Source: Candidatus Magasanikbacteria bacterium CG10_big_fil_rev_8_21_14_0_10_47_10 (lineage in GTDB: Bacteria > Patescibacteriota > Patescibacteriia > Magasanikbacterales > UBA922). From it: 64,000 nt of DNA. Under the pieces are notes generated by a model that saw only the letters and a program-made list of their open reading frames with translations, did no database searches and had not been told where the DNA came from. The position numbers were made by a program, and so were the translations under genes. This document shows, in pieces, positions 10,973 through 33,864 of the stretch. How positions within the stretch are numbered: position 1 is the first letter of the stretch; the number at the start of each line of letters is the position of its first letter. Location of the stretch: the NCBI GenBank assembly GCA_002773135.1, contig PFCB01000028.1, positions 4,203 through 68,202 of the forward strand, written 5' to 3'.

Positions 10973-13699
10973 ATGAAGATAGCCATCATCCAATTTCCCG
11001 GCTCCAACTGCGAGCAAGAATCCAGCCAGGCCATAAAAATGGCAGGCATGGAGCCGGTTGAATTCATGTGGAATCATGACCCAAACAGCCTGAGCGAGTT
11101 TGACGGCTATTTTATTGTTGGCGGTTTTTCGTATGAGGACAGATCCCGTGCCGGCATTATCGCGGCAATGGATCCGCTTATGCCATATATTGCAGCAGAG
11201 GCGCTGAAAGGAAAACCGGTGCTTGGCATTTGCAATGGCGCCCAAATTTTGGTGGAAACGGGCCTGGTACCCGGGCTGCGGGGCAATGCCGTGGGTATGG
11301 CGATTGCCACGAACAAACGTGTGAAGCACAGCACGGTACTTGGCACCGGATTTTATAATGCCTGGGTAAACATAGCGGTATCGTGCGATCCGCACAGTTC
11401 GGCTTTTACCCGACATATGCGGCATGGCACGCCAATTCGCGTACCAGTGGCGCACGCGGAAGGCCGATTTATCATTGCCGATGAGCTGGTAACGCAAATG
11501 AAACGATACAACCAGCTCACATTTCGATACACAGACCAAAATGGCAAATGGGCTATTGAATTCCCTGACAATCCAAACGGATCGACGCAGGGCATTGCCG
11601 CGGTCAGCAACCCCGCCGGTAATGTCATGGCCATGATGCCCCATCCGGAACGGACAGACGTTGGCCAGCCCATTTTTACTTCCATGCGTGACTTTATCGC
11701 GGATGAGCGGCGCATTCAGATACGCACTCTTGACTACCGTGTACCAAAAGTCGCAGTACAAAAATATGAGCCTTCGGGCACGGGTATTGTGACGGAATTG
11801 ATCATTACGGACAATGAAGCCGTGACGGTTGAACAAACATTGCGCGCGAAAAAAATTGACGTGTCTGTATCTCGATATTCTCATTGGGCCGCGACCGGCG
11901 AAAACATATCAGCAGAGACACTATCCAAAACCGGCGAATTGTTTAACTCAAACAAAGAGCGGGTGGTAGATAATCTGCCGGCTGAAAAAAACACGCTGTA
12001 CTTGATGGTACGTGATAAAGAGGATTTTGTCGGTCAATCAAAAAAACAGACACTAAAAACGCGCTTTAGTATGAGCGGTCTGCGTGACCTTCTATACAGC
12101 CGCGTCTGGAAGATATCGGCGCAGAGTGGCAATCTTCATGAAGCGATTGAGGCGATAATGGAAACAAATATCCTATTCAACCCGCACGCGCAAGACTGCT
12201 ATATGTTTGCGCCAACTGCGGCCTCACCCGCTAAACCACAGCCTATGCAACAGGAAAAACAGCAAAACATGCCGTCATACGTGAACACAATTACGGAGCA
12301 ACGTAATAACTGTTTGACACGAACCGACGCACCGCTGGGAACGCGATTAGAAGGCAAGGTTCGCGATCGCTATGTTCAGGATGACAAAATTATTCTCATA
12401 ACCACAGACCGCCAAAGCGCCTTTGACCGCGTCCTTGCATCCATCCCTTTTAAGGGACAGGTTCTGAATCTGACCAGTGCCTGGTGGTTTGAGAAAACAA
12501 AACATATTATTCCCAATCATGTTATTGAAATCCCGGATCCAAACGTCACCGTGGGAAAAAAGGTAGATGTTTTTCCGGTTGAATTTGTCGTGCGGGGATA
12601 TATTACCGGTACGACGGATACATCTGCATGGGTTAACTACAATAAAGGCGTGCGAGATTTTTGTGGTAATCAGCTGCCGGAAGGGCTGAAAAAAAATCAA
12701 AAGTTTGACTTCCCTATTATTACGCCAACGACAAAAGCCGATGAGCACGACCGCCTTATTTCACCAAAGGATATTATTGACGAAGGCCTGATGACTCAGC
12801 AGGAATGGGATTTTTGCAGCCGTAAGGCGTTGGAGCTGTTTAGCTTTGGCCAGGCAATCGCGCGCGAGCGTGGATTGATTTTAGTGGATACTAAATACGA
12901 AATGGGCCGCGACAAGGATGGCAATATCATTCTTGTTGACGAAATTCACACACCGGACTCCAGCCGCTACTGGATCGCAGCGTCATATGAGGGACGCATG
13001 GCAAACGGCAAAGAGCCGGAAAATATTGATAAAGAATTCCTGCGACTCTGGTTTAAAGATAATTGTGATCCCTATAATGACAAGGAGCTGCCTCCTGCTC
13101 CTCCGGAGCTGGTTGCGGAGCTGTCACGCCGGTACATTATGCTCTATGAAATGATCACTGGTGAAACATTTGTCTTTCCCGAAGATGGACTGCGCGTGGA
13201 AGATAGACTGACAGAGAACCTTGCGACGTACGTCATTGAAAACAAAACACATGACACAGATACCAAAACACATATTGTTGCTGGGGAGGTAGAATTGTCG
13301 CGCGAGATGAAAGTTGTGTTAGTGCTGGGGTCAGAGAAAGACGCGGATTTTGCAAAGAGAATCACTGAGCTGCTTGCGCAGGACGGCATTGCCTTTGACC
13401 AGCACGTGGCCAGCGCGCACAAGGAAGCGGCCAAAGGCCTGGACTTGATTGAACGCTACAAGGACAAACGCGTGATCTATGTCACTATTGCCGGGAGGTC
13501 TAACGCGCTGTCCGGCTTTATGGCCGGCAATTCAGACAAGCCTGTTATCGCCTGTCCCCCATTTACTGACAAAATGGATATGCTGGTCAACATTCACTCT
13601 ACCCTGCAAATGCCAAGCAAAGTACCGGTTATGACTATTTTGGAACCTGGCAATGTTGTGCTGGCGATTAAGAGAATTATGTCACTCATTTCATCTTGA
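10973..13699 (+). CDS. Four-module fusion protein: PurQ (glutaminase) - PurS-like (possibly tandem) - PurC (SAICAR synthetase) - PurE-like (AIR carboxylase/N5-CAIR mutase)
   Basis: 908-aa uninterrupted ORF. aa 1-~240 class I GATase (MKIAIIQFPGSNCE, GICNGAQIL Cys, MPHPER His). aa ~255-430 PurS-like (AVTVEQTLRAKKIDVSVSRY ... ILFNPHAQDCYMF ~ LxNPVIEDY). aa ~445-740 PurC (LEGKVRDRYV..., ITTDRQSAFD). aa ~765-908 PurE-like (MKVVLVLGSEKD..., SAHK, VTIAGRSNALSGFMAGNSDKPVIACPP). Confidence 0.8.
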   Translation: MKIAIIQFPGSNCEQESSQAIKMAGMEPVEFMWNHDPNSLSEFDGYFIVGGFSYEDRSRAGIIAAMDPLMPYIAAEALKGKPVLGICNGAQILVETGLVPGLRGNAVGMAIATNKRVKHSTVLGTGFYNAWVNIAVSCDPHSSAFTRHMRHGTPIRVPVAHAEGRFIIADELVTQMKRYNQLTFRYTDQNGKWAIEFPDNPNGSTQGIAAVSNPAGNVMAMMPHPERTDVGQPIFTSMRDFIADERRIQIRTLDYRVPKVAVQKYEPSGTGIVTELIITDNEAVTVEQTLRAKKIDVSVSRYSHWAATGENISAETLSKTGELFNSNKERVVDNLPAEKNTLYLMVRDKEDFVGQSKKQTLKTRFSMSGLRDLLYSRVWKISAQSGNLHEAIEAIMETNILFNPHAQDCYMFAPTAASPAKPQPMQQEKQQNMPSYVNTITEQRNNCLTRTDAPLGTRLEGKVRDRYVQDDKIILITTDRQSAFDRVLASIPFKGQVLNLTSAWWFEKTKHIIPNHVIEIPDPNVTVGKKVDVFPVEFVVRGYITGTTDTSAWVNYNKGVRDFCGNQLPEGLKKNQKFDFPIITPTTKADEHDRLISPKDIIDEGLMTQQEWDFCSRKALELFSFGQAIARERGLILVDTKYEMGRDKDGNIILVDEIHTPDSSRYWIAASYEGRMANGKEPENIDKEFLRLWFKDNCDPYNDKELPPAPPELVAELSRRYIMLYEMITGETFVFPEDGLRVEDRLTENLATYVIENKTHDTDTKTHIVAGEVELSREMKVVLVLGSEKDADFAKRITELLAQDGIAFDQHVASAHKEAAKGLDLIERYKDKRVIYVTIAGRSNALSGFMAGNSDKPVIACPPFTDKMDMLVNIHSTLQMPSKVPVMTILEPGNVVLAIKRIMSLISS

Positions 13700-13707
13700 G
13701 CCTATCC

Positions 13708-13758
13708 CTTGTGTCATCCTGAACTTGTTTGCCGTGTCATCCTGAACTTGTTTCAGGA
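13708..13758. repeat. Tandem direct repeat (2 x GTGTCATCCTGAACTTGTTT, 23-bp period) whose second copy forms hairpin ATCCTGAA-CTTGT-TTCAGGAT
   Basis: Exact 20-nt copies at 13711-13730 and 13734-13753; 8-bp perfect inverted arms 13738-13745/13751-13758. Confidence 0.7.
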
Positions 13759-13779
13759 TCTCGGTACAATACGTAGTAA

Positions 13780-13800
13780 ATGCTGAAATAAATTCAGCAT
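13780..13800. promoter_or_regulatory. Perfect palindrome ATGCTGAA-ATAAA-TTCAGCAT upstream of purB; candidate operator (related to hairpin at 13738-13758; TACAAT -10-like box at 13765-13770 lies between them)
   Basis: 8-bp perfect inverted arms with 5-nt spacer; shares CTGAA-N5-TTCAG core with the upstream hairpin. Confidence 0.45.
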
Positions 13801-13881
13801 GACAACAATATGGCATAACAACACTACACAATGACATCACGATAGAGTGACAAGGAGACTTCCCTGACGAACGTTAAAAAT

Positions 13882-16816: not shown

Positions 16817-16920
16817 TTATTATTTTTATTACTTATAGTAACAAATGATTTATTGTAATGAGCGCTGATGCGTGGGAAGCACACTGCACCAACGCCCCAA
16901 GCAAACCGCCGCAGAATGTC

Positions 16921-16941
16921 CTCTCCCCTTTTAGGGGAGAG
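16921..16941. repeat. Perfect hairpin CTCTCCCC-TTTTA-GGGGAGAG immediately upstream of the DUF559 gene
   Basis: 8-bp stem, 5-nt loop, seen directly. Confidence 0.6.
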
Positions 16942-16974
16942 ACAGAGAGAGGTACAATCAAGAAAGGAGGGAAT

Positions 16975-17406
16975 ATGCAACAACAGCACAACCGTGCTCG
17001 AAGCGACGAACTGAAAGCCCGACGCAGACAGTTGCGCCAAAAGCAAACGAAGGCTGAAAAAGTATTTTGGCAAGAAGTGCGCGCCTGCCGTACTGGGTAC
17101 CACGTCCGCAGGCAGCACAATATCAGCGCTTTTATCGTTGATTTTTACTGCCATGAGGTAGCTTTGATCATAGAACTCGACGGACCGATTCACCGATATA
17201 CAAAAGACTACGACCGTTGGCGGCAAGCAAAGCTTGAAAGCTGGGGCTATTATGTCATACGATATAACAACAACGAGGTTCTCTTTGACCGAGAGCGCGT
17301 ATTGAATGAGGTTCTTCTCTTCTGTGAAGTGTTGCGTATTTCGATGGCAGTGGCTTCTAGAACCTCTCCCTGTCCCTCTCCTTGCCCTTCGCTGCGCTCG
17401 GGGTGA
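16975..17406 (+). CDS. DUF559 (Vsr-like endonuclease-domain) protein
   Basis: Start at MQQQHNRARSDELKARRRQLRQKQT; core GYHVRRQHNISAFIVDFYCHEVALIIELDGPIHRY...WGYYVIRYNNNEV matches the DUF559 pattern (RRQ...DFyc...ElDG..H....D..R...L...G..V.R..N..V). Confidence 0.75.
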   Translation: MQQQHNRARSDELKARRRQLRQKQTKAEKVFWQEVRACRTGYHVRRQHNISAFIVDFYCHEVALIIELDGPIHRYTKDYDRWRQAKLESWGYYVIRYNNNEVLFDRERVLNEVLLFCEVLRISMAVASRTSPCPSPCPSLRSG

Positions 17407-21720: not shown

Positions 21721-23196
21721 CTACTCCCCCACCCGATAATTCGGCGCGTCTTCAATTCGCCCCAAATCATGCGGATGGCTCTCTTTGAGTGATGATCCTG
21801 ATATTTTTACAAAATGGGCATTGCGCTGCAAATCAGCAATCGTGCGTGAGCCGGTATACCCCATGCCGGATCGCAAACCGCCGGCCAGCTGATATAGAAT
21901 GCGGTCCACCGTGCCCTTGTACGGAACGCGGCCACTCACACCCTCAGGGACAAACTTCATCTTTTGTGTGACATCTGCTTGGCCATAGCGATCTTTGCTT
22001 CCCTGTTCCATGGCTTGCAAAGACCCCATGCCACGATATGTTTTAAACATACGACCATCTATAAATTCAACACGCCCTGGTGATTCATCTGTCCCTGCAA
22101 ACAGGTTCCCCATCATTACGGTGGAAGCTCCTGCGGCAAGTGCTTTTACAATATCACCGGATGTTTTGATACCACCATCTGCAATAAGCGGTACAATTTT
22201 CTTCGCTGCGTGCACACCTTTTGCAACTTCCAAAATGGCTGACAACTGTGGCACGCCAATGCCGGCCACCACGCGCGTGGTGCAAATTGAGCCTGGCCCA
22301 ATGCCGACTTTCACAGCATCCGCACCCGCGTTAATTAGCGCGTGTGCTGCTTCTGCGGTTGCAATATTCCCTGCAATTACTTGCGCGCTTGGGTATGCTG
22401 CTTTTATTTCCAATACCGTAGAAATAACACCATCCGAATCACCATGTGCCGTATCTACCACCAGCACATCCGCGCGCTCGCGCAACAACGCTTCTGCGCG
22501 CGCAAGACCGGCTTGACCAACACCAACTGCTGCACCAACACGCAACTGTTTATTTTCGTCTTTTGCAGCGTCAGGATATTTGTGATTTTTTTCTATATCA
22601 TGTCGCGTTACCATACTCACCAATCGCCTTTTTTCATCAACAATACAAAGCGTGCGAAGTTTAAACTCTCGAATCATCATATTTGCCTGGTCCAAGGTAA
22701 TACCATCCTTTGCCAAAATCAATTCAGTGGCAGGCGTCATTCTATCTTTAACCAAAAGATGTGCGTCATCCGGAATAAAATAATCAACATCAGAAATAAT
22801 ACCCAGAAGAATGCCATTTTCATCAACAACAGGTGTCTTTTTAAACCCCTGCTGTTCACGAATATCCATCACCCGCTGTATAGTGTCATTTGGCCCCACT
22901 GTGGCTGGCCGCATAATAAACCCATTTTCAAAACGTTTTACTTTGTGAACTTCATACGCTTGCTCCTCTATTGAAAGATTTTTATGTATCACACCCAGCC
23001 CACCGGCCAACGCCATGGATATAGCCATTTTTGCTTGCGTCACCGTGTCCATTGGCGCAGACAAAAAAGGATTATTTAGCTGTATACTGCGTGTTAGTTG
23101 CGCATGGAGCGTGACATCCTTTGGCAACACATCAGAGTGCTGCGGAATAAGCAGCACATCATCAAATGTCAGAGTTGCCTCAAAAGGATCAAACAT
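21721..23196 (-). CDS. guaB: Inosine-5'-monophosphate dehydrogenase
   Basis: Start placed at MFDPFEATLTFDDVLLIPQ (third Met of ORF; upstream part is translated repeat element IPAFAGMTP); CBS pair, catalytic loop, GGIKTSGDIVKALAAGASTVMMG. Confidence 0.9.
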   Translation of the reverse strand: MFDPFEATLTFDDVLLIPQHSDVLPKDVTLHAQLTRSIQLNNPFLSAPMDTVTQAKMAISMALAGGLGVIHKNLSIEEQAYEVHKVKRFENGFIMRPATVGPNDTIQRVMDIREQQGFKKTPVVDENGILLGIISDVDYFIPDDAHLLVKDRMTPATELILAKDGITLDQANMMIREFKLRTLCIVDEKRRLVSMVTRHDIEKNHKYPDAAKDENKQLRVGAAVGVGQAGLARAEALLRERADVLVVDTAHGDSDGVISTVLEIKAAYPSAQVIAGNIATAEAAHALINAGADAVKVGIGPGSICTTRVVAGIGVPQLSAILEVAKGVHAAKKIVPLIADGGIKTSGDIVKALAAGASTVMMGNLFAGTDESPGRVEFIDGRMFKTYRGMGSLQAMEQGSKDRYGQADVTQKMKFVPEGVSGRVPYKGTVDRILYQLAGGLRSGMGYTGSRTIADLQRNAHFVKISGSSLKESHPHDLGRIEDAPNYRVGE

Positions 23197-23225: not shown

Positions 23226-23307
23226 CAGGTGTCATTCCCGCGAAAGCGGGAATCCAGTAAAACAATGTTCCTGCTAACTGGATCCCCGCTTTCGCGGGGA
23301 TGACACG
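23226..23307. repeat. MITE-like palindromic element: GTGTCATTCCCGCGAAAGCGGGAATCCAG - 24-nt spacer - CTGGATCCCCGCTTTCGCGGGGATGACAC (two inverted units), in the guaB-guaA divergent intergenic region
   Basis: Each unit is itself a hairpin (CCCGC-GAAA-GCGGG); units are inverted copies of each other; third and fourth copies at 25303-25420. Confidence 0.8.
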
Positions 23308-23391
23308 ATTAGTCCTTTATGCGCTCAATACACGCTACAAGTTACAGGATAATTGCATTCTATCATCCTTATTGTTATGATTCAAACCACT

Positions 23392-25269
23392 ATGAAAGAC
23401 CATATTGCCATACTGGATTTTGGATCTCAGTACACACATCTGATTGCCCGGCGCGTGCGTGAGTTGGGTGTCCGATCACATATTTATTCGTCTACCACGC
23501 TCGCCGATGACCTGGTTCATGCGGCCGGCATTATCCTTTCAGGTGGACCGGGTAGCATTGTAAAAAATGGACCACTCACTCATGATCCGGATATTTTTGA
23601 AATAGGGGTCCCTATGCTCGGCCTGTGCTATGGGCATCAGCTCATGGCATACCATTTTGGCGGACGGCTTGCTGCAGGAACAGCTAGAGAATACGGCAGC
23701 GCGGATCTTCATATTTCAGATTCTGCTATTTTTAATCAAATTGGTAATACAACAACGGTGTGGATGAGTCATGGCGAGCATGTTGCAGACCTGCCGGATG
23801 AATTTGTATGCATTGCCAATACAGGTAATGGCAGCGTTGGTGCTATGTCGCATGAAGAAAGACGCTTATTTGGTTTTCAATACCATCCGGAAGTGCATCA
23901 TTCTTCAGATGGCATAACCATGCTGCGCAATTTCATCTTTGATATTTGCAATGCTCAGAAAAATTGGAGCACAGCAAACCAACTGGAACAAATACAATGT
24001 CAAATTATTTCTGAAGCAGGCAACAAAAATGTTTTTCTTTTGCTCAGCGGTGGTGTTGATTCTACTGTCTGCTATGCACTGCTGAAAAAAACGTTGGGCA
24101 AACACCGCGTCTATGGTCTGCATGTGGATCATGGCATGATGAGAAAAAATGAGTCTACACAAGTTACCAAGGCACTTGCAGCTATTGGCCTCGATGACTT
24201 ACATGTGGCCAATGCGGAAACTACTTTTTTGGAAGCGCTTCGCGGTGTTGTTGATCCGGAACAAAAACGAAAGATTATCGGTGATCTATTTATTGATATT
24301 GCCAATACTGTCATGGCTGACCTGAAAATGAACAACGGAAATTGGCTGCTTGGCCAAGGTACTATTTATCCGGATACAATTGAATCAGGTGGTACAAAAA
24401 ATGCTGATACGATCAAAACACATCACAATCGAGTAGACAAAATTAATGAAATGATTGCGCAAGGATTAGTAATTGAACCAATTAAAGATTTGTATAAAGA
24501 CGAAGTGCGCGCAGTTGGCCGCGAGCTTGGTCTTCCATCAGAAATTGTTGACCGACATCCGTTTCCCGGACCTGGCCTGGCAATACGATGTTTGTGTTCC
24601 GACGGAAGTACTGAGCGAGCATCCGTCATTGCGAGCCCAGATCACAATACTCGTCATTGCGAGCGAAGCGAAGCAATCCCCCACATCAATGGGATTGCCG
24701 CGGTCGCTGCGCTCCCTCGCAATAACGAAATAAAATCTAGTACTGCTTATACTATATACAGGCTTCCCATCAAATCTGTGGGCGTCCAAGGTGATGAACG
24801 CAGTTACGCGCACCCGGCCGTGCTCACTGGATCATATAGTCTCCATGAACTGCAACAACTGTCCCCTACCATCACCAATCAGCATCATGATATAAACCGG
24901 GTACTTGGTCTGATATACGGCGATATAAATAAACTGAATGCATCGCTGATGCATAAAGCGGATGTGTGCAACGCGCGCCTTGATTTGCTACGCAATATAG
25001 ATCAGCGAGTAAATACTATTGTGCAGCGTGATCCAAACTGGAACAAGGTGTGGCAAATGCCTATTGTTCTTATTCCGTTTGGACATACAAAAAAAGAATC
25101 ACTTGTGATCCGGCCGGTAGAGTCAAGCGAGGCCATGACTGTTTCATTTGCGCCGCTGCATCCGGACACGCTGCGCGTAATAATAGAAGACCTGACTGTT
25201 TCTCAGCAGGTCGATTATATCTTCTACGATCTGACCAATAAACCACCCGGGACAATCGAATGGGAATGA
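23392..25269 (+). CDS. guaA: GMP synthase (glutamine-hydrolysing), unusually long (~625 aa) owing to internal insertions
   Basis: Start at MKDHIAILDFGSQY; class I GATase, PP-loop LLSGGVDSTV, C-terminal dimerisation domain ending KPPGTIEWE. Confidence 0.9.
   Translation: MKDHIAILDFGSQYTHLIARRVRELGVRSHIYSSTTLADDLVHAAGIILSGGPGSIVKNGPLTHDPDIFEIGVPMLGLCYGHQLMAYHFGGRLAAGTAREYGSADLHISDSAIFNQIGNTTTVWMSHGEHVADLPDEFVCIANTGNGSVGAMSHEERRLFGFQYHPEVHHSSDGITMLRNFIFDICNAQKNWSTANQLEQIQCQIISEAGNKNVFLLLSGGVDSTVCYALLKKTLGKHRVYGLHVDHGMMRKNESTQVTKALAAIGLDDLHVANAETTFLEALRGVVDPEQKRKIIGDLFIDIANTVMADLKMNNGNWLLGQGTIYPDTIESGGTKNADTIKTHHNRVDKINEMIAQGLVIEPIKDLYKDEVRAVGRELGLPSEIVDRHPFPGPGLAIRCLCSDGSTERASVIASPDHNTRHCERSEAIPHINGIAAVAALPRNNEIKSSTAYTIYRLPIKSVGVQGDERSYAHPAVLTGSYSLHELQQLSPTITNQHHDINRVLGLIYGDINKLNASLMHKADVCNARLDLLRNIDQRVNTIVQRDPNWNKVWQMPIVLIPFGHTKKESLVIRPVESSEAMTVSFAPLHPDTLRVIIEDLTVSQQVDYIFYDLTNKPPGTIEWE
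24620..24730. repeat. Palindromic repeat element inserted IN-FRAME within guaA (units CGTCATTGCGAGC, CGTCATTGCGAGCGAAGCGAAGCAATCCC, and inverted GGGATTGCCGCGGTCGCTGCGCTCCCTCGCAATAACG)
   Basis: Shares GTCATT...AATCC termini with the intergenic repeats; translated as ...SVIASPDHNTRHCERSEAIPHINGIAAVAALPRNNE... at the position where canonical GuaA has a shorter T.E.L..LR.AD.I segment. Confidence 0.65.
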
Positions 25270-25302
25270 ATGTACGAATGGCTACTGAGTACAAAATACA
25301 CT

Positions 25303-25420
25303 TGTCATTCCCGCGAATGCGGGAATCCAGTCAGCTCAGCTATCCGCCCTGCCTGGATCCCCGATAGTCGACGCTCCGCGTCGTACTTCGAGGATGACAA
25401 TGTCATCTGACATTATCCGA
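25303..25420. repeat. Second composite copy of the GTCATTCCCGCGAA(A/T)GCGGGAATCCAG element (one intact unit + one inverted unit disrupted by a ~28-nt insert containing the TCGACGC-TCC-GCGTCGA palindrome), between convergent guaA and epimerase genes
   Basis: CTTGTCATTCCCGCGAATGCGGGAATCCAGTC at 25303-25334; CTGGATCCCC...GAGGATGACAATGTCATC at ~25352-25420. Confidence 0.7.
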
Positions 25421-25439: not shown

Positions 25440-26354
25440 TTATTCAATCCCCATTTCTTCTTTCAACGCTTTTATTCCTTCTTCCAGCTCAATACTTGGT
25501 GCCCAGCCCAACAGTTGCTTTGCTTTTGTAATATCAGCACCGGAAAAACGAGGATCACCAGGGCGTTCCGGAACATTCACATGTTCCCCACCAATCAAGT
25601 CAACAAGCTGATTCACTGTTGTTGGTCTGCTATTACCAATATTGATTACGTCTCCCTTTCCTACTGTGTCCTTTGTCATTGCAAGTATGTTTGCTCGCAC
25701 CACATCAGACACATGCGTATAGTCACGATAATACTCTCCATCCCCGCAAACTGTCATGGGCTCGCCATTCTTTTTTTGTGTTAAAAATTTTCCAATAACC
25801 AATGCATAGGCACCCTCCGGATCAAAATATGGACCATACACATTAAAATAAATCAAACTGACTGTTTCAATATCATATAACTGCGCAAACAAACGACAAT
25901 AATGTTCTCCGGTCAACTTATGAAGCGCATACGGACTAATTGGCATTTTCACCGCACCATCTTCCTTCAGCAGCTCCTTTTCCTCTGCGCCATATGTTGA
26001 TGATGACGAGCTAAAGATAACACGCTTCACACCAGCGTCGCGCGCGGCTAGCAGCACGTTGAGCGTTCCATTAACATTTACATCATTTGTTTCAAGCGGA
26101 TGTTCAACAGAAAATGTTACCCGTGGCAATGCTGCCATGTGAAACACACCATCAACATTTTCCATTGCCCGAAGCAATGCATCAAAATCACGAATATCTC
26201 CTTCAATGTACGCAACGCCTTGTTGCAGCCGCTCCTCTTTTTTGCCACCTGCGTAGTTATCAAAAACACGAACTGTGTGACCCTCCGCAATAAGCTGAAC
26301 AACTAAATTTGTTCCAATAAAGCCTGCACCGCCTGTTACCAAATAATTTGCCAT
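25440..26354 (-). CDS. NAD-dependent nucleotide-sugar epimerase/dehydratase (GalE/WbpP-like SDR)
   Basis: 304 aa; MANYLVTGGAGFIGTNLV Rossmann, YxxxK-type SDR body. Confidence 0.8.
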   Translation of the reverse strand: MANYLVTGGAGFIGTNLVVQLIAEGHTVRVFDNYAGGKKEERLQQGVAYIEGDIRDFDALLRAMENVDGVFHMAALPRVTFSVEHPLETNDVNVNGTLNVLLAARDAGVKRVIFSSSSSTYGAEEKELLKEDGAVKMPISPYALHKLTGEHYCRLFAQLYDIETVSLIYFNVYGPYFDPEGAYALVIGKFLTQKKNGEPMTVCGDGEYYRDYTHVSDVVRANILAMTKDTVGKGDVINIGNSRPTTVNQLVDLIGGEHVNVPERPGDPRFSGADITKAKQLLGWAPSIELEEGIKALKEEMGIE

Positions 26355-29241: not shown

Positions 29242-29363
29242 ATGAAGGATATAGTACATTTTGCAGCACTCTTCGTCAAGCAATTGCGCTAATATAAGGG
29301 AAAATATTGACTTTAGCAATTATGTATGGTATACACACAGTCAAATCAACAGGGGGTGAAATC

Positions 29364-30179
29364 ATGCGCAAGATCGTGAACATCATCATTTGGATTGTTG
29401 CCATTGGCCTGCTGGTCATCTACCCGCTTGTAAGCCGCGCGGATGAGGCGGCCGAGGCAGATGCCGACGAGGTGTCCGCGTTCGACAAGGGCTCAGCCCT
29501 GTTCGAAGCACGCGACTACGAGGCAGCAAAAGCTGCGCTGCTGAAAGTGATCGCAGACTCCGAGCTCACCCTAGGCCAGCGCGAGGAAGTACTCTTCATG
29601 CTCGGAGCGTCGTGCCACGAGCTTGGCAACCTCACATGCGCTGTCTTCTACTTGGAGAACTATCTCGCGATTGCAACAATCGCGAGCCCTCACCTCATTG
29701 AGGCGCGCAACCGCGTGAAGCGCATCAAGAATCCACCTCCACCTGTTGTCGAGGCTCCAAAGGAGGAGCCACTGCCTCCACCGGCAACCATGCCATCACC
29801 GGCAGAAGAGCACAAAGATGCGGAAGCATTGGCAAAGGCAGCTGAGCCAAGCCGAGGCATCATGCCGAACTGGTACGTATGGACACTGGGTGGAGCAGCT
29901 CTTGCCTGCGGAGTTGGAACAGTGGTGTACGGAGTCGAAGCGTTGAACCGCGAAAAGCAGACCCACTCACAGGACATCCAAAGCCGCGCCGAATATAGGC
30001 AACGCGTGGATGACATGGAGTCTGCGCAGACAGCCACGAACGTCTTCCTGCTCTCATCTGCTGTGCTTGGCGCCTCGGCCGGTGTGCTCTGGTGGCTGGA
30101 TCTGCGCGAATCCACACCATCGAACGCTCTTTCTCTCACCCCCACCCCTTCCGGCGCGACGCTTTCTGTCGCTTTCTAG
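29364..30179 (+). CDS. GC-rich island gene 1: membrane protein with N-terminal signal/anchor, TPR-like helical region, Pro-rich linker (KNPPPPVVEAPKEEPLPPPATMPSP) and C-terminal TM helix
   Basis: Start at MRKIVNIIIWIVAIGLLVIYPLVSRA preceded by GGGGGTG RBS; GC content rises abruptly here. Confidence 0.55.
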   Translation: MRKIVNIIIWIVAIGLLVIYPLVSRADEAAEADADEVSAFDKGSALFEARDYEAAKAALLKVIADSELTLGQREEVLFMLGASCHELGNLTCAVFYLENYLAIATIASPHLIEARNRVKRIKNPPPPVVEAPKEEPLPPPATMPSPAEEHKDAEALAKAAEPSRGIMPNWYVWTLGGAALACGVGTVVYGVEALNREKQTHSQDIQSRAEYRQRVDDMESAQTATNVFLLSSAVLGASAGVLWWLDLRESTPSNALSLTPTPSGATLSVAF

Positions 30180-30198
30180 CCGGCATGAGGCTGTCCAA

Positions 30199-30267
30199 AA
30201 GACCGCCCCATTCCCCTGTTATTCTGATCAAATCGGAATAAAAGGAGGAGATGGGCGGTCTTTTTTT
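30199..30267 (+). terminator. Structured terminator-like element: outer stem AAGACCGCCC/GGGCGGTCTT enclosing a 44-nt loop with inner stem TTATTC/GAATAA, followed by TTTTTTT
   Basis: Seen directly; AT-rich (host-like) composition unlike flanking coding DNA. Confidence 0.5.
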
Positions 30268-30327
30268 GCTAAAATTAGGTAAAAAAAGGAAAATACAAGA
30301 ATGTTCCCTATTCTTTCAGTCTTCATA

Positions 30328-30356
30328 TTGACAAAACCGCTTAATTATGCTAAATT
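30328..30356 (+). promoter_or_regulatory. Sigma70-like promoter (TTGACA - 17 nt - TAAATT) for the repeat-protein gene
   Basis: Consensus -35 hexamer and spacing; AT-rich intergenic. Confidence 0.45.
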
Positions 30357-30425
30357 ATCCTGTCTCGGTATACTAATATCGGACGTGTTTCTTACAACTC
30401 GCAGCCCTGTGGGCAAGGACAAGTC

Positions 30426-32639
30426 ATGAACCTCCGTAGCCTCGTCGGAATCGTTTTTTTCTTCAACTTCGCGGCGTGCATCGTGGGGGCGCCCGCCGGC
30501 GGCCCGGCTGAGTGCTACTCTGTCCGCGACTGCGCGGACAGCGGGCACTTCGCCTGCGTCAACGAGGAGTGCGTCGAGGTTGAGGACCCCGACGCCGATG
30601 TCAGCGGCAACGGCGGCGCGGGCGGCAGCATCGGCAGCCCGGACTTTGGTCCGGACGCCGAGCTGCCCGACATGATGGGCCCGCCCCCGTGCGAACCCGA
30701 CGTCGAGTGCGTTGTCCCCGATGCGCTCGGCCCGTGTGCCGATGGTGTCACGGTCTGCACCGAAGGCGGCGAGGTCTGCGATCCGGTCGCAACTCCGCAA
30801 GAGGAAGTGTGCGACGGCGTGGACAACAACTGCAACGGCGAGACGGACGAAGGCGACCTCGACAGGTCGTGCTTCTCCGGCAGGCCCGAGCAGATCGACG
30901 TCGGCATCTGCCACGCAGGCACCCAAGCCTGCGTCAACGGCGCCTACGGCGACTGCGACGGCGAGACCCTGCCCGAGCTCGAGGGCGACGTGCCCGACGG
31001 CGAGGACAACAACTGCGACGGATCCGCTGACGAGGGCTTCGACTGCCTCCCTGGCATCGAAGACCGCGAATGCGGCCGCTTGCAGGTTGGCACGTGCCGA
31101 CCCGGCCTTCAGTCCTGTCAGCCCGACGGAACCTGGAGCGATTGCGAGGGACAAACCCTCCCCGCGCCCGAGTTCTGCGATGGCATGGACAACAACTGCG
31201 ACGGCATGGTCGACAACAACGCCATGGACGCCGATGGTGTCTGCGCCCTGGGCACTGGTGCATGCGTGCGCCAAGGCCTCGGAATCTGCTTCGATGGCAG
31301 AATCATCTGCAACGCGGTCCCGGGAGTTCCGGGGACCGAGCGCTGCAGCGACAACATGGACAACGACTGCGACGGCCAGATCGATGAAGGCTTCCCCGAC
31401 CTGGGAATGGCCTGCGAGGCCGGCATCGGCGAGTGCGCTCGTCAGGGCACACTCGTCTGCGCGGGCGATCGACTCGCCTGCAGCGCGGTTCCAGGACAGA
31501 CCGCCGCCGAGATCTGTGACGGACTCGACAACGACTGCGACGGTGAGACAGACGAGGACATGCTGGGCAACCCGCTGTCCCAGCTGTGCTACACCGGCCC
31601 TGTCGGGACTCAAGGCGTTGGACTGTGCCGCACCGGCGTACAGACCTGCCAGAACAGTCGCTTCGGCGACTGCCTCGGGCAGGTCCTGCCAGTGCAGGAA
31701 CAGTGTGGCGACGGAAACGATGAAGACTGCAACGGCATGATCGACGAGTCCTGCTGCGACCCCAGCCCCGAGATCTGTAACGGTCGCGACGACGACTGCG
31801 ACCGCCAGATCGACGAGGGCAACCCGGGTGGCGGCGCGGCCTGCGACACCGGACAGTTCGGACTCTGCGGACCCGGCACCATGACCTGCCAGAACGGACA
31901 GGTCGAGTGTGCCGGCGTGGATCCGGCTGCCGAGATCTGCGATGGTCTGGACAACGACTGCAACGGTGAAGTCGACGATGGCTTCAACGTAGGAGCGGCC
32001 TGCGCGGTCGGCATCGGTCTGTGCGAACGCACCGGCCGCATTGCTTGCCAGGCCGGCTTGGCCGCGTGCGACGCGGTCCCGGGACAGCCCGCCGTCGAGA
32101 TCTGCAACGGACTCGACGACGACTGCGACGGGATGGCCGACGAACACAACGTGCCGCTGGTGCAAGACGGAGACCTCTCGGTCTACACCTGCTCCCCCGA
32201 CTTCGTGGTGCAGGATCTCGGAGGCGGTCAGTTTCTGCGGATCGACCGCAACAGTCAGCCCATCCTCCAGCAAGCCGCGGCGGCCAACGCCTGCGCGGCG
32301 CGGGGCATGCGCCTCCCCACCATCGCAGAGCTGCGGTCGTGGATCGAGGGCTGCCCGACTACGGAAACGGGCGGTGCCTGCCGCATCACAGACGCGGCTG
32401 GCTGTGCCGGCCTTGCCGCTTGCGAGGACCGGGCGAACTGCCAGTGCGCCGCGGCCATGGGGCCGGCTGCCGATGGCTGCTACTGGGCAGCCGGCGTCTG
32501 GCAGGGCGAGTGCAGCCAGAACTGGAGCAGCCGCGTTGATGGCGCCTACGCCATCGCGGCAGTCTTCATCTCCGGCCGCGTCACCGGGTACCAACCACAG
32601 CCCTACGCCTACCGTTGCGTGGCCCCCGGCCTGCCCTAA
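30426..32639 (+). CDS. GC-rich island gene 2: secreted lipoprotein (lipobox FAAC) with ~9 Cys/Asp-rich CDGxDNDCDGxxDE(G) repeats (MopE-type putative metal-binding / thrombospondin-type-3-like Ca-binding motif) and a C-terminal ~170-aa lectin-fold/DUF1566-like domain (GMRLPTIAELRSW)
   Basis: 737 aa; repeats CDGVDNNCNGETDEG, DGEDNNCDGSADEGF, CDGMDNNCDGMVDNN, CSDNMDNDCDGQIDEGF, CDGLDNDCDGETDED, CGDGNDEDCNGMIDES, CNGRDDDCDRQIDEG, CDGLDNDCNGEVDDGF, CNGLDDDCDGMADEH; strongly C-ending codons. Confidence 0.7.
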   Translation: MNLRSLVGIVFFFNFAACIVGAPAGGPAECYSVRDCADSGHFACVNEECVEVEDPDADVSGNGGAGGSIGSPDFGPDAELPDMMGPPPCEPDVECVVPDALGPCADGVTVCTEGGEVCDPVATPQEEVCDGVDNNCNGETDEGDLDRSCFSGRPEQIDVGICHAGTQACVNGAYGDCDGETLPELEGDVPDGEDNNCDGSADEGFDCLPGIEDRECGRLQVGTCRPGLQSCQPDGTWSDCEGQTLPAPEFCDGMDNNCDGMVDNNAMDADGVCALGTGACVRQGLGICFDGRIICNAVPGVPGTERCSDNMDNDCDGQIDEGFPDLGMACEAGIGECARQGTLVCAGDRLACSAVPGQTAAEICDGLDNDCDGETDEDMLGNPLSQLCYTGPVGTQGVGLCRTGVQTCQNSRFGDCLGQVLPVQEQCGDGNDEDCNGMIDESCCDPSPEICNGRDDDCDRQIDEGNPGGGAACDTGQFGLCGPGTMTCQNGQVECAGVDPAAEICDGLDNDCNGEVDDGFNVGAACAVGIGLCERTGRIACQAGLAACDAVPGQPAVEICNGLDDDCDGMADEHNVPLVQDGDLSVYTCSPDFVVQDLGGGQFLRIDRNSQPILQQAAAANACAARGMRLPTIAELRSWIEGCPTTETGGACRITDAAGCAGLAACEDRANCQCAAAMGPAADGCYWAAGVWQGECSQNWSSRVDGAYAIAAVFISGRVTGYQPQPYAYRCVAPGLP

Positions 32640-32722
32640 CCCACTTCTTCCATTTTTCCCTGGAAGTCCGCCACGGCGGACTCGGGAACCTACCAAGGAG
32701 CGCCTCTCTTCATGTTGAAGAG

Positions 32723-32756
32723 GGGCACAAACAAAAACCCGCCTTATAAAAGGCGG
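32723..32756. terminator. Bidirectional rho-independent terminator AAAAACCCGCCTT-ATAA-AAGGCGGGTTTTT
   Basis: Perfect stem, A-tract and T-tract. Confidence 0.8.
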
Positions 32757-32853
32757 GTTTTTGTTTGTACATACCGTTGACAAACACGCTTTTTTTTGCT
32801 AAAGTTTGCAGGCAAATTGCTGTCCAATTCGGACGGCAGCGCATGGAGGAACT

Positions 32854-33645
32854 GTGTCCGATCATCCGATCAAGAGCGCCGCGCACGACGCGGCGGAGAA
32901 GTTCACCCGAGACGGCCGACCGGCAGATGGGGTGGTCTACCGCGCCGTCCTGCCGGACAGCCGATCGAGCAGCTACTTCACCAGCTTCGGCTTCCAAGGC
33001 GTGGGGATGACCGCCCTTGGGTACCAGGTCGTGATGACCAGCTACTTCGAACCCATGATCAGAATGGGAGCGATCACGGGCTGGCGCGACAACGCCCCGC
33101 GCTACATCTATGCCCTGAGGGGAGGTGAGGCCATCGCGTGGACCGAGCTGGGTTGTCTGGCCAAGAAGGGCCAGAGCCAGCAGGAGAAGGTCCGCCTCTT
33201 CCCCGGCATCATGCCGGGCAGCGGCGCTGCGCGCGCCCAGACCGTCATGATGGACGCAGGCGGCACGCTCTGGCTGACGCGCAACGGAGAGACCGACCGC
33301 TTCTACCGCCTGGTCAAGACCGAGAGCGGCAGCTGGCGGCACATCGAACCGGTCATCCTGCAGGGACGACACACGGGGTGCTACATCGAGGCTGCCTCCA
33401 TGAGGAGCGATCACATCGCCGTGATCCGCTCGCGCCAAGATGGCACTCCGGCCTGGATGGAATCCTACGGGTTCAACGGTCGCTTTATTCCGGGCGCAGC
33501 CGACGAAGGACCCCGCACCCCTTGGCTGTACGGGTTGACCTTCCGAGCCGGCGATCCGGAACCATGGACCGTGATCGATACCACCACGCGCAAGGCCACG
33601 GTGCCGCGCGGCATCTACCGCGGCACCAAGTTGGTGCGGCGGTAG
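32854..33645 (+). CDS. GC-rich island gene 3: hypothetical cytoplasmic protein (no signal peptide), unknown family
   Basis: GTG start 7 nt after GGAGG RBS chosen; alternative ATG at 32806. Complex (non-low-complexity) amino-acid composition, in contrast to the antisense ORF. Confidence 0.4.
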   Translation: MSDHPIKSAAHDAAEKFTRDGRPADGVVYRAVLPDSRSSSYFTSFGFQGVGMTALGYQVVMTSYFEPMIRMGAITGWRDNAPRYIYALRGGEAIAWTELGCLAKKGQSQQEKVRLFPGIMPGSGAARAQTVMMDAGGTLWLTRNGETDRFYRLVKTESGSWRHIEPVILQGRHTGCYIEAASMRSDHIAVIRSRQDGTPAWMESYGFNGRFIPGAADEGPRTPWLYGLTFRAGDPEPWTVIDTTTRKATVPRGIYRGTKLVRR

Positions 33646-33864
33646 ATGCCGCGCGGCACCGCCCTCGCCTTCCTGCCCAATGGCGACCTGCTGGTCCTGC
33701 AGTACCGCCATGGCCATGGCGCCTTTGGCCGACCCGGCCGACTGGCCATCGTCAGCGCGGGCGCCCTTCCACCGCCGGTGTGACATGTTCCACCGCCTAC
33801 CGCATGGGGACTGGCCATCCCCTTCCATTCAATGCGTAGAATACATATTGTATTCATTGAAAAC

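What the first reader, a model, noticed from the sequence alone, without database searches (positions are those of the whole stretch)
23226..25420. GTCATT...AATCC palindromic repeat family flanking guaB/guaA and inserted in-frame inside guaA
Four units of GTCATTCCCGCGAA(A/T)GCGGGAATCCAG occur as two inverted pairs at 23226-23307 and 25303-25420. Each unit is itself a hairpin. A related variant with the same termini but a different core (CGTCATTGCGAGCGAAGCGAAGCAATCCC, plus its imperfect inverted copy) lies inside the guaA reading frame at 24620-24730 and is translated (CERSEAIPHINGIAAVAALP). It replaces or extends a surface segment of the ATP-pyrophosphatase domain without breaking the frame. 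This is the behaviour described for Rickettsia palindromic elements. The copy upstream of guaB also generates the spurious N-terminal IPAFAGMTP extension of the guaB ORF.
Basis: seen in the sequence. Interest (0 to 1): 0.65.

Follow-up and report, generated by a model that had tools for sequence, protein, structure and literature searches.

The report
Tagged hairpin repeats colonising guaA
A candidate-phyla-radiation bacterium carries copies of a known, very widespread family of short hairpin DNA repeats around its GMP synthase gene. One copy sits in frame inside the gene, where it adds a 34-residue floppy loop; this is an ordinary kind of element in a host group where I found no report of it.

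Summary
The repeats are real, and they belong to a known family. Three units (23230-23257 +, 23278-23305 -, 25303-25330 +) read TGTC / 8-bp stem ATTCCCGC / 4-nt loop / GCGGGAAT / CCA. That is the CGTC-1 tagged REP of Di Nocera 2013, which equals Neisseria dRS3/NTS and Rickettsia RPE-6. All three match the published Ssn-related motif (3 hits against 0.25 in shuffles).

The guaA insert (24624-24727, residues 412-445) is a head-to-head dimer of a second family with the same tag. It aligns end to end with intergenic dimers in Alphaproteobacteria.

Insert-free orthologues have 26-34 aa between the PFPGPGL and SVGVQGD motifs; this protein has 65. AlphaFold gives pLDDT below 50 across residues 419-450, inside the insert. 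The intragenic copy is shared with a 66%-identical orthologue, while the two intergenic elements are absent from that syntenic relative. At least 10 of 118 orthologues carry tagged inserts in the same linker.

A Wildermuthbacteria ssn (GIY-YIG) gene is flanked by units identical to the window's. No ssn gene lies in the 75 kb examined.

This is a new member of a known kind, of moderate interest.

The parts
23230..23305 (.). Element A. A head-to-head dimer of two CGTC-1/SRM units (23230-23257 + and 23278-23305 -) around an 18-20-nt spacer. It lies in the divergent guaB/guaA spacer, 34 nt upstream of the guaB ATG (23196).
   Evidence: Absent from the syntenic relative L001.
24624..24727 (+). Element C, in frame inside guaA (residues 412-445, VIASPDHNTRHCERSEAIPHINGIAAVAALPRNN). 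It consists of a truncated head (24624-24636) plus filler, a short unit (24652-24679), a loop, and a long partner unit on the other strand (24691-24727). It is a head-to-head heterodimer of a second CGTC-tagged family.
   Evidence: Same site and same ends in L001. Model pLDDT is below 50 at residues 419-450.
25303..25399 (.). Element B. A canonical CGTC-1/SRM unit (25303-25330 +) paired with a variant partner (25353-25399 -) that keeps the tag and tail but has a different 30-nt stem-loop core. It lies in the convergent spacer between guaA (stop at 25269) and the epimerase gene (25440-26354, minus strand).
   Evidence: Absent from L001.
13712..13804 (.). A truncated head (13712-13730) is followed by a head-to-head dimer of TGTC-tagged hairpins with 8-bp stems and 5-nt loops (13735-13762 + and 13777-13804 -). 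It starts 13 nt after the stop of the 908-aa purine fusion gene.
   Evidence: folding z = -5.5.
23392..25269 (+). guaA, encoding the long, eukaryote-like form of GMP synthase that hosts element C. The deposited annotation starts at 23377 (630 aa).
21721..23196 (-). guaB (IMP dehydrogenase). The true start is the ATG at 23196; the ORF extension up to 23265 reads through element A.

Best explanation
The repeats are non-autonomous, CGTC/TGTC-tagged REP-type hairpin repeats. The canonical units belong to the CGTC-1 family, which is the same as Neisseria dRS3/NTS, Rickettsia RPE-6 and the 'Ssn-related motif'. They are arranged as head-to-head dimers.

In this Magasanikbacteria genome four such elements sit in the purine gene cluster: A and B in the spacers either side of guaA, D after a pur fusion gene, and C inside guaA.

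Shown here:
- Element C is a dimer of a second tagged family.
- It is inserted in frame in the linker between the ATP-pyrophosphatase domain and the dimerisation domain.
- It is absent from most orthologues.
- It is shared with a 66%-identical orthologue, so it is old.
- It is modelled as a disordered loop.

Inferred:
- The element is translated and is nearly neutral.
- It survives because several reading frames of these G+C-rich palindromes have no stop codon, and because a flexible linker tolerates extra residues.
- The repeats spread as single-stranded DNA hairpins handled by an enzyme acting in trans. The best candidate is an Ssn-type GIY-YIG single-strand nuclease, whose genes are flanked by identical units in another candidate-phyla-radiation bacterium.
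- The intergenic copies may in addition act as Ssn cleavage sites on incoming ssDNA, or as RNA hairpins.
For: Family anatomy:
- The units read TGTC tag, 8-bp stem starting AT, 4-nt loop, CCA tail. This matches the CGTC-1 definition in PMC3733652.
- Three hits to the published SRM pattern, against 0.25 expected.
- The unit at 23230-23257 differs from the NTS consensus at one base.
- The same 25-mer occurs in more than 120 stretches across many phyla, including Paceibacteria, Parcubacteria, Saccharibacteria and Peribacteria. It is often found as a + then - pair 40-110 nt apart.

Insertion rather than ancestral sequence:
- The stretch between the PFPGPGL and SVGVQGD motifs is 26-34 aa in most of 118 orthologues and 65 aa here.
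- Element C aligns over its full length with intergenic heterodimers in Roseiarcus and another alphaproteobacterium.
- Elements A and B fall in alignment gaps against the syntenic relative L001.

Age and recurrence:
- C shares its site and both ends with L001.
- At least 10 of 118 orthologues carry tag-bounded inserts in this linker, at two or more positions and from three or more sequence types.
- Other sites in GuaA are also hit.

Structure: mean pLDDT is 82.6, but below 50 at residues 419-450.

Link to Ssn:
- All 13 Ssn-family ORFs found in the fetched loci are flanked by type-1 units.
- The Wildermuthbacteria ssn homologue P0177 is flanked by TGTCATTCCCGCGAAAGCGGGAATCCAG, identical to window 23230-23257.
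Against: - No Ssn/GIY-YIG ORF lies in the window or in the 10.9 kb of flanking contig examined. The rest of the genome could not be searched.
- Only four elements occur in about 75 kb, so this genome is not shown to be repeat-rich.
- Element C does not match the published SRM pattern, and none of the 105 viral loci with C-type units held an Ssn-family ORF. The enzyme for that family is therefore unknown.
- Ssn is a nuclease shown to cut ssDNA. Nobody has shown that it copies the repeats (PMC11893778).
- Translation of the insert is inferred from frame conservation, not observed.
Confidence: 0.8

Rival explanations
1. The hairpins are kept at guaBA because they do something for the host. They could act as RNA stabilisers or terminators, as a 5'-UTR element for guaB, or as an NTS-gene-NTS arrangement that limits recombination of incoming ssDNA, as proposed for Neisseria. 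This is compatible with the family assignment but differs on why the copies are here.
For: - guaA is bracketed by units on both sides.
- B lies between convergent genes and D lies 13 nt after a stop codon, which are the typical positions of transcribed REPs.
- All four elements lie in the purine gene cluster and none in the other roughly 50 kb.
- Element C has been kept across 34% protein divergence.
Against: - No T-run follows the hairpins, and the terminator scan does not pick them up.
- A and B are missing from the closest syntenic relative, which has the same genes.
- The clustering rests on four elements and was noticed after the fact.
- Rfam has no match in this region.
Confidence: 0.15
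2. The elements are classic MITEs: deletion derivatives of an insertion sequence, moved by a DDE transposase that recognises the GTCAT...ATGAC terminal inverted repeats.
For: - The elements are 76-104 nt long with inverted ends.
- They occur in viral contigs.
Against: - No target-site duplication is visible at A, B, C or D.
- The arms are self-contained hairpin units that also occur singly.
- No insertion sequence with these ends was seen in any fetched locus. Di Nocera et al. found no transposase associated with CGTC repeats.
Confidence: 0.07
3. The elements are REPINs of the GTAG class, mobilised by a RAYT (an IS200-like tyrosine transposase).
For: The doublet architecture is the same as that of REPINs.
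Against: - The tag is TGTC/CGTC, not GTAG.
- CGTC repeats do not flank RAYT genes (PMC3733652).
- The genes found flanked by these units here are GIY-YIG genes.
- The window's ORFs were not scanned for Y1 transposases, so absence from the window is not shown.
Confidence: 0.04
4. The GuaA segment is ancestral linker sequence, or an assembly artefact, and not an insertion.
For: The linker varies in length across the family, and human GMPS has a long segment at this position.
Against: - The DNA is a palindrome. Its 28-nt left unit CGTCATTGCGAGCGAAGCGAAGCAATCC also occurs, letter for letter, in a Roseiarcus intergenic element.
- Most orthologues lack the segment.
- The same protein is on record from two contigs, and contigs from two separate assemblies (ENA, 95,231 nt; Logan) carry genes of this window.
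Confidence: 0.03

Closest known systems
CGTC-tagged REPs, family CGTC-1 (Di Nocera, De Gregorio & Rocco 2013, PMC3733652)
   Same: - Unpaired 5' tag (the TGTC variant), 8-bp stem starting with AT, 4-nt loop and CCA tail.
- Head-to-head dimers.
- Copies between convergent, divergent and same-direction genes.
- Intragenic in-frame units that encode 20-30 aa.
   Different: - The paper reports five phyla and no candidate-phyla-radiation bacterium.
- guaA is not among the listed host genes.
- Element C belongs to a different sequence type. I could not assign it to CGTC-2, -3 or -4 because the figure is not held.
NTS / Ssn-related motifs and the Ssn GIY-YIG ssDNA nucleases (Nat Commun 2025, PMC11893778)
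   Same: - The units match the SRM pattern. One is a single mismatch from the NTS consensus CGTCATTCCCGCGMAVGCGGGAATCYRG.
- The C just after the palindrome (critical for binding) and the GTC just before it (critical for cleavage) are both present.
- A candidate-phyla-radiation ssn homologue is flanked by identical units.
   Different: - No ssn gene lies in the 75 kb examined.
- The paper does not mention Patescibacteria.
- Its focus is natural transformation in Neisseria, not in-frame insertions.
Rickettsia palindromic elements (RPE-6 and RPE-4, and by behaviour RPE-1)
   Same: - In-frame insertion into genes that stay intact.
- RPE-6 equals CGTC-1 according to PMC3733652.
- Identical encoded peptides (VIPAKAGI, SFPRKRES).
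   Different: - The host is a free-living or epibiotic groundwater candidate-phyla-radiation bacterium, not Rickettsia.
- RPE-1 is a longer, unrelated sequence.
- Similarity to RPE consensus sequences was not computed here.
REPINs / RAYT-associated GTAG REPs
   Same: Hairpin doublets that form a longer hairpin, dispersed and non-autonomous.
   Different: The tag differs (GTAG against CGTC), and no RAYT association is known for CGTC repeats.

Membership tests
CGTC-1 tagged REP | Unpaired 5' tag CGTC (TGTC or CCTC allowed) | tested here: met
   TGTC is present on all three canonical units.
CGTC-1 tagged REP | 8-bp stem starting with AT, 4-nt loop, 3-nt tail close to CCA | tested here: met
   The units read ATTCCCGC/GAAA/GCGGGAAT/CCA, ATCCCCGC/GAAA/GCGGGGAT/CCA and ATTCCCGC/GAAT/GCGGGAAT/CCA.
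CGTC-1 tagged REP | Predominantly head-to-head dimers | tested here: met
   A is a homodimer and B a heterodimer with a variant partner. The same + then - pairs occur in many loci.
CGTC-1 tagged REP | Multi-copy and dispersed within the host genome | tested here: inconclusive
   Three canonical units, and four tagged elements in all, occur in about 75 kb of one contig.
NTS/SRM-Ssn system | Match to the SRM search pattern HGTCWYN(0-2)YYVSBRHN(0-5)WNVSBRGN(0-2)RNCYNB | tested here: met
   Three hits against 0.25 in shuffles. Elements C and D do not match.
NTS/SRM-Ssn system | An ssn (GIY-YIG, cd10448) gene in the genome, typically flanked by the motif | tested here: inconclusive
   None lies in the window, the 4 kb to its left or the 6.8 kb to its right. 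One is present and flanked by identical units in a Wildermuthbacteria contig.
NTS/SRM-Ssn system | Strand-specific cleavage of the motif as ssDNA by Ssn | not testable with these tools
   This needs an enzyme assay.
Rickettsia palindromic elements | A palindromic repeat inserted in frame in a gene that keeps its conserved residues | tested here: met
Rickettsia palindromic elements | Sequence membership in a named RPE family | not tested
   The assignment rests on the statement in PMC3733652 that CGTC-1 equals RPE-6, and on identical encoded peptides. No alignment to RPE consensus sequences was made.
REPIN/RAYT | GTAG tag and an associated RAYT gene | tested here: not met
   The tag is TGTC. 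The genes flanked by these units are GIY-YIG genes. Y1 transposases were not searched for in the window.
IS-derived MITE | Target-site duplication and a parent insertion sequence with the same terminal repeats | tested here: not met
   There are no direct repeats at the element borders. No parent insertion sequence was seen in the fetched loci.

The most novel reading that the evidence does not exclude
The SRM/Ssn repeat system is active in candidate-phyla-radiation bacteria, which depend on DNA uptake. The GuaA inter-domain linker is then a preferred landing site, so tagged REPs are a regular source of linker expansion in these small genomes. In addition, the recurrent 'head-stutter' could be a footprint of the still unknown copying mechanism of CGTC repeats. 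The stutter is a truncated tag plus 5' half-stem lying 14-42 nt upstream of a full unit. It is seen at 29 of 695 units, against 7 downstream, and occurs in window elements C and D.
Probability: 0.2. Interest if true: 0.6.

Novelty: new member of a known kind. Interest (0 to 1): 0.38.

Why it matters
This extends a pan-bacterial repeat family, and probably its cognate single-strand nuclease, to the candidate phyla radiation. Neither of the two key papers nor my literature searches mention that group in this context.

It also gives a clean natural experiment on how proteins tolerate mobile-element insertions. The same linker of an essential purine enzyme has been hit repeatedly, by several sequence types, and one insert has been retained across deep divergence.

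On the practical side, such repeats inflate ORF calls, as with the guaB extension. They also create odd 'hypothetical' peptides in MAG annotation.

Tried and rejected
- My first degenerate pattern was mis-specified and found only the guaA copy. I replaced it with regex scans.
- Rfam at gathering thresholds found only a tRNA.
- The promoter and terminator scan did not flag the hairpins as intrinsic terminators.
- Searches for an Ssn/GIY-YIG ORF in the window and flanks found nothing. I used a motif regex, phmmer and a two-sequence HMM; the best E-value was 3.1.
- Attempts to reach the remaining roughly 27 kb of the contig recovered only 6.8 kb. One look-up returned short contigs and one found no record.
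- Clustering ORFs next to C-type units in 105 viral loci gave only phage structural genes. No recurrent candidate enzyme emerged.
- The model coordinates are not exposed, so I could not measure surface exposure or the distance between the insert's ends.
Full report
**Origin of the window**

The GuaA protein encoded at 23392-25269 is 100% identical to a protein annotated as GMP synthase of a Candidatus Magasanikbacteria bacterium (CG10_big_fil_rev...). Its nearest relatives are Magasanikbacteria and other Patescibacteria. Contigs from other assemblies carry genes of this window: an ENA contig of 95,231 nt and a Logan contig. The window starts 4,082 nt from one end of the ENA contig.

guaB lies on the minus strand (21721-23196) and guaA on the plus strand. 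They are followed by a convergent epimerase gene at 25440-26354.

**Check of the observation**

Three 28-nt units are nearly identical:
- TGTCATTCCCGCGAAAGCGGGAATCCAG at 23230-23257 (+)
- TGTCATCCCCGCGAAAGCGGGGATCCAG at 23278-23305 (-)
- TGTCATTCCCGCGAATGCGGGAATCCAG at 25303-25330 (+)

Each folds into an 8-bp stem with a 4-nt loop (z = -5.8). The first two together form a 76-nt hairpin at -32.7 kcal/mol (z = -9.6).

The copy inside guaA is in frame. The ORF is unbroken, and every invariant GuaA residue downstream of it is present.

The guaB extension IPAFAGMT arises only if the ORF is read from the first possible start codon, through element A. The IMPDH domain and the 491-492-aa orthologues fit the ATG at 23196.

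**Is it an insertion?**

In 118 orthologues I measured the stretch between the PFPGPGL and SVGVQGD motifs. Its median length is 38 aa. Most close relatives have 26-34 aa, and the window's 65 aa ties for the longest.

The extra DNA (24624-24727; codons 412-445, VIASPDHNTRHCERSEAIPHINGIAAVAALPRNN) is a palindrome (z = -3.9).

It aligns end to end with intergenic head-to-head heterodimers in a Roseiarcus contig and in another alphaproteobacterial contig. These have a short unit, CGTCATTGCGAGCGAAGCGAAGCAATCC, facing a longer partner. Sequence this similar between the intergenic DNA of another phylum and a coding linker cannot be ancestral GuaA sequence.

The closest syntenic relative, L001, has 66% GuaA identity and the same gene order: purH, a small gene, guaB, guaA, the epimerase gene and UDP-glucose dehydrogenase genes. 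It carries an element at exactly the same site, with the same two ends but a diverged interior. The intragenic insertion therefore predates the split of these two lineages.

In contrast, elements A and B fall in alignment gaps. L001 has only 83 nt and 29 nt in the corresponding spacers.

**A recurrent landing site**

DNA from other orthologues shows different tagged palindromes in the same linker:
- L002 has a perfect 75-nt element, GTCATTGCGAGCGTAAGCGAAGCAAGCC...CGCTCGCAATGAC, plus a half unit.
- L003 has a GTCATCCTGAGC-type unit followed by a canonical CGTC-1 dimer in frame.

At least 10 of 118 orthologues have linker inserts bounded by tag-derived peptides (VI.., HCE.. at the start..RND..GMT..KDP at the end). 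In P0088, P0114 and P0115 the insert begins directly after the conserved LC motif (directly after LW in P0114), which is a second position. Other GuaA sites are also hit in relatives P0011 and P0060.

I looked only at guaA loci, so 'hot spot' means recurrent use of this linker. It does not mean enrichment relative to other genes.

**Structure**

AlphaFold2, run on a 25-sequence alignment, gives mean pLDDT 82.6 and pTM 0.82. Residues 419-450 score below 50 and have no secondary structure. They are flanked by short strands at 411-413 and 454-457.

The only other long low-confidence segment is 327-341, in the ATP-pyrophosphatase domain.

The best full-length match among solved structures is human GMP synthase, 2VXO. 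This is therefore the long form of the enzyme, and the insert lies between the PFPGPGLAIRCLC end of the ATP-pyrophosphatase domain and the LPIKSVGVQGD strand of the dimerisation domain. The insert extends a linker; it does not replace a domain segment.

**What the repeats are**

The anatomy is that of the CGTC-1 family of tagged REPs: a TGTC tag, an 8-bp stem starting with AT, a 4-nt loop, a CCA tail, and head-to-head dimers. Di Nocera et al. describe this family and equate it with Neisseria dRS3 and R. conorii RPE-6. They report intragenic in-frame copies encoding 20-30 aa and found no transposase (PMC3733652).

Their supplement lists R. conorii peptides VIPAKAGI and SFPRKRES. These are the translations of the window's unit.

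A 2025 paper (PMC11893778) showed that the 28-nt Neisseria version is bound and cut, as single-stranded DNA only, by the 94-aa GIY-YIG nuclease SsnA. That version is NTS, CGTCATTCCCGCGMAVGCGGGAATCYRG. The paper also showed that ssn genes across bacteria are flanked by such 'Ssn-related motifs'.

All three window units match the published SRM pattern, with 3 hits against 0.25 in shuffles. They differ from the NTS consensus at 1, 3 and 2 positions. They keep the GTC before the palindrome and the C after it, which the paper found critical for cleavage and binding.

**Distribution**

The record titles include:
- Alpha-, Beta-, Gamma- and Deltaproteobacteria
- Bacteroidota, Chloroflexota, Planctomycetota, Nitrospirota and Acidobacteriota
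- Gemmatimonadota, Omnitrophota and Zixibacteria
- The candidate-phyla-radiation groups Paceibacteria, Parcubacteria, Saccharibacteria and Peribacteria

Both unit types also occur in more than 100 IMG/VR viral contigs each.

In the loci I fetched, all 13 Ssn-family ORFs are flanked by type-1 units. These ORFs represent about 11 independent genes.

A search with one of these proteins found a homologue annotated from Candidatus Wildermuthbacteria (P0177). In its contig the gene is bracketed by TGTCATTCCCGCGAAAGCGGGAATCCAG, identical over 28 nt to window 23230-23257. The repeat-nuclease pair therefore exists in at least one MAG assigned to the candidate phyla radiation. Neither paper mentions that group, and my literature searches found nothing linking Patescibacteria to REPs.

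**What is not shown**

- No Ssn-like ORF lies in the window or in the 10.9 kb of flanking contig. The rest of the MAG could not be read.
- Element C and the newly found element D do not match the SRM pattern.
- D lies at 13712-13804, has 8-bp stems and 5-nt loops, and starts 13 nt after the stop of a pur fusion gene.
- No candidate enzyme emerged next to C-type units in 105 viral loci.
- Whether Ssn copies the repeats or only cuts them is unknown in the literature.
- Translation of the insert is inferred.

**Mechanism, with confidence**

- I am about 0.9 confident that these are CGTC-tagged REP/SRM elements.
- I am about 0.75 confident that C is a translated, tolerated linker insertion. Element C is free of stop codons in three of its six reading frames, and its 76-nt core in three of six. 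A copy landing in a flexible linker can therefore survive.
- I am about 0.3 confident that an Ssn-type nuclease is the partner enzyme in this genome.
- The intergenic copies sit in a divergent spacer (A), a convergent spacer (B) and a same-direction spacer (D). None has a T-run. A host function is possible but not indicated.

**Unexplained observation**

Elements C and D each start with a truncated copy of the tag plus the 5' half-stem, 23-28 nt upstream of the full unit. The same 'head-stutter' occurs across phyla. Of 695 tagged hairpins in the fetched loci, 29 have such a copy upstream and 7 downstream. It may be a footprint of copying, or of slippage at hairpins.

**Verdict**

It belongs to an already described family. 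The new points are the host group, the host gene and the recurrent use of one linker.

Noticed in passing
window 13712-13804: A fourth tagged palindromic element (TGTC ATCCTGAA CTTGT TTCAGGAT CTC plus an inverted partner). It starts 13 nt after the stop of the 908-aa purine fusion gene and has a truncated head copy in front.
   Followed up: yes
window C (24624-24636 / 24652) and D (13712-13730 / 13735); L131:5302-5332; L002:64-88; L137: A 'head-stutter': a truncated tag plus 5' half-stem lying 14-42 nt upstream of a full unit in the same orientation. It is seen at 29 of 695 units, against 7 downstream. I have no explanation.
   Followed up: partly
window 16919-16944 and 16975-17406: A DUF559 (Vsr-like endonuclease) gene preceded by a TGTC-tagged hairpin, TCTCCCCT-AAA-AGGGGAGA. 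In one orthologue (P0004) a DUF559 domain is fused to the N-terminus of GuaA. Several orthologues carry inserts such as PLPRGEG or PPRRGETERG after the HPA motif, which suggests a second family of in-frame hairpin elements.
   Followed up: partly
window 29300-33800: An island of 59-71% G+C in a genome of about 46% G+C. It encodes a 737-aa protein with six MopE-type metal-binding repeats. It also contains a 31-nt, 97%-complementary palindrome at 33599-33661 and a perfect 19-bp hairpin at 32727-32768. It may have been acquired horizontally.
   Followed up: partly
window 23392-25269: GuaA is the long form of the enzyme. Its best full-length match among solved structures is human GMP synthase (2VXO), not the 525-aa bacterial enzymes.
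   Followed up: partly
window 25400-25413: The palindrome ATGTCATCTGACAT directly abuts the right end of element B. It looks like another truncated tag in the opposite orientation.
   Followed up: no
L003 6785-6851: A canonical CGTC-1 head-to-head dimer lies inside the called 5' part of a Dus (tRNA-dihydrouridine synthase) gene in a relative. This is either another in-frame copy or an over-extended gene call.
   Followed up: no
L329 427-996, and 105 viral loci from L253 onward (82 are listed): The guaA-type unit occurs in 105 IMG/VR contigs next to phage structural genes. One scaffold-like ORF reads VIASEAKQS in frame.
   Followed up: partly
window 10973-13699: A single 908-aa ORF combines GATase_5, SAICAR synthase and AIR carboxylase domains, an unusual purine-pathway fusion. 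All four tagged elements of the window lie within the purine gene cluster (about 3.8-25.3 kb).
   Followed up: no
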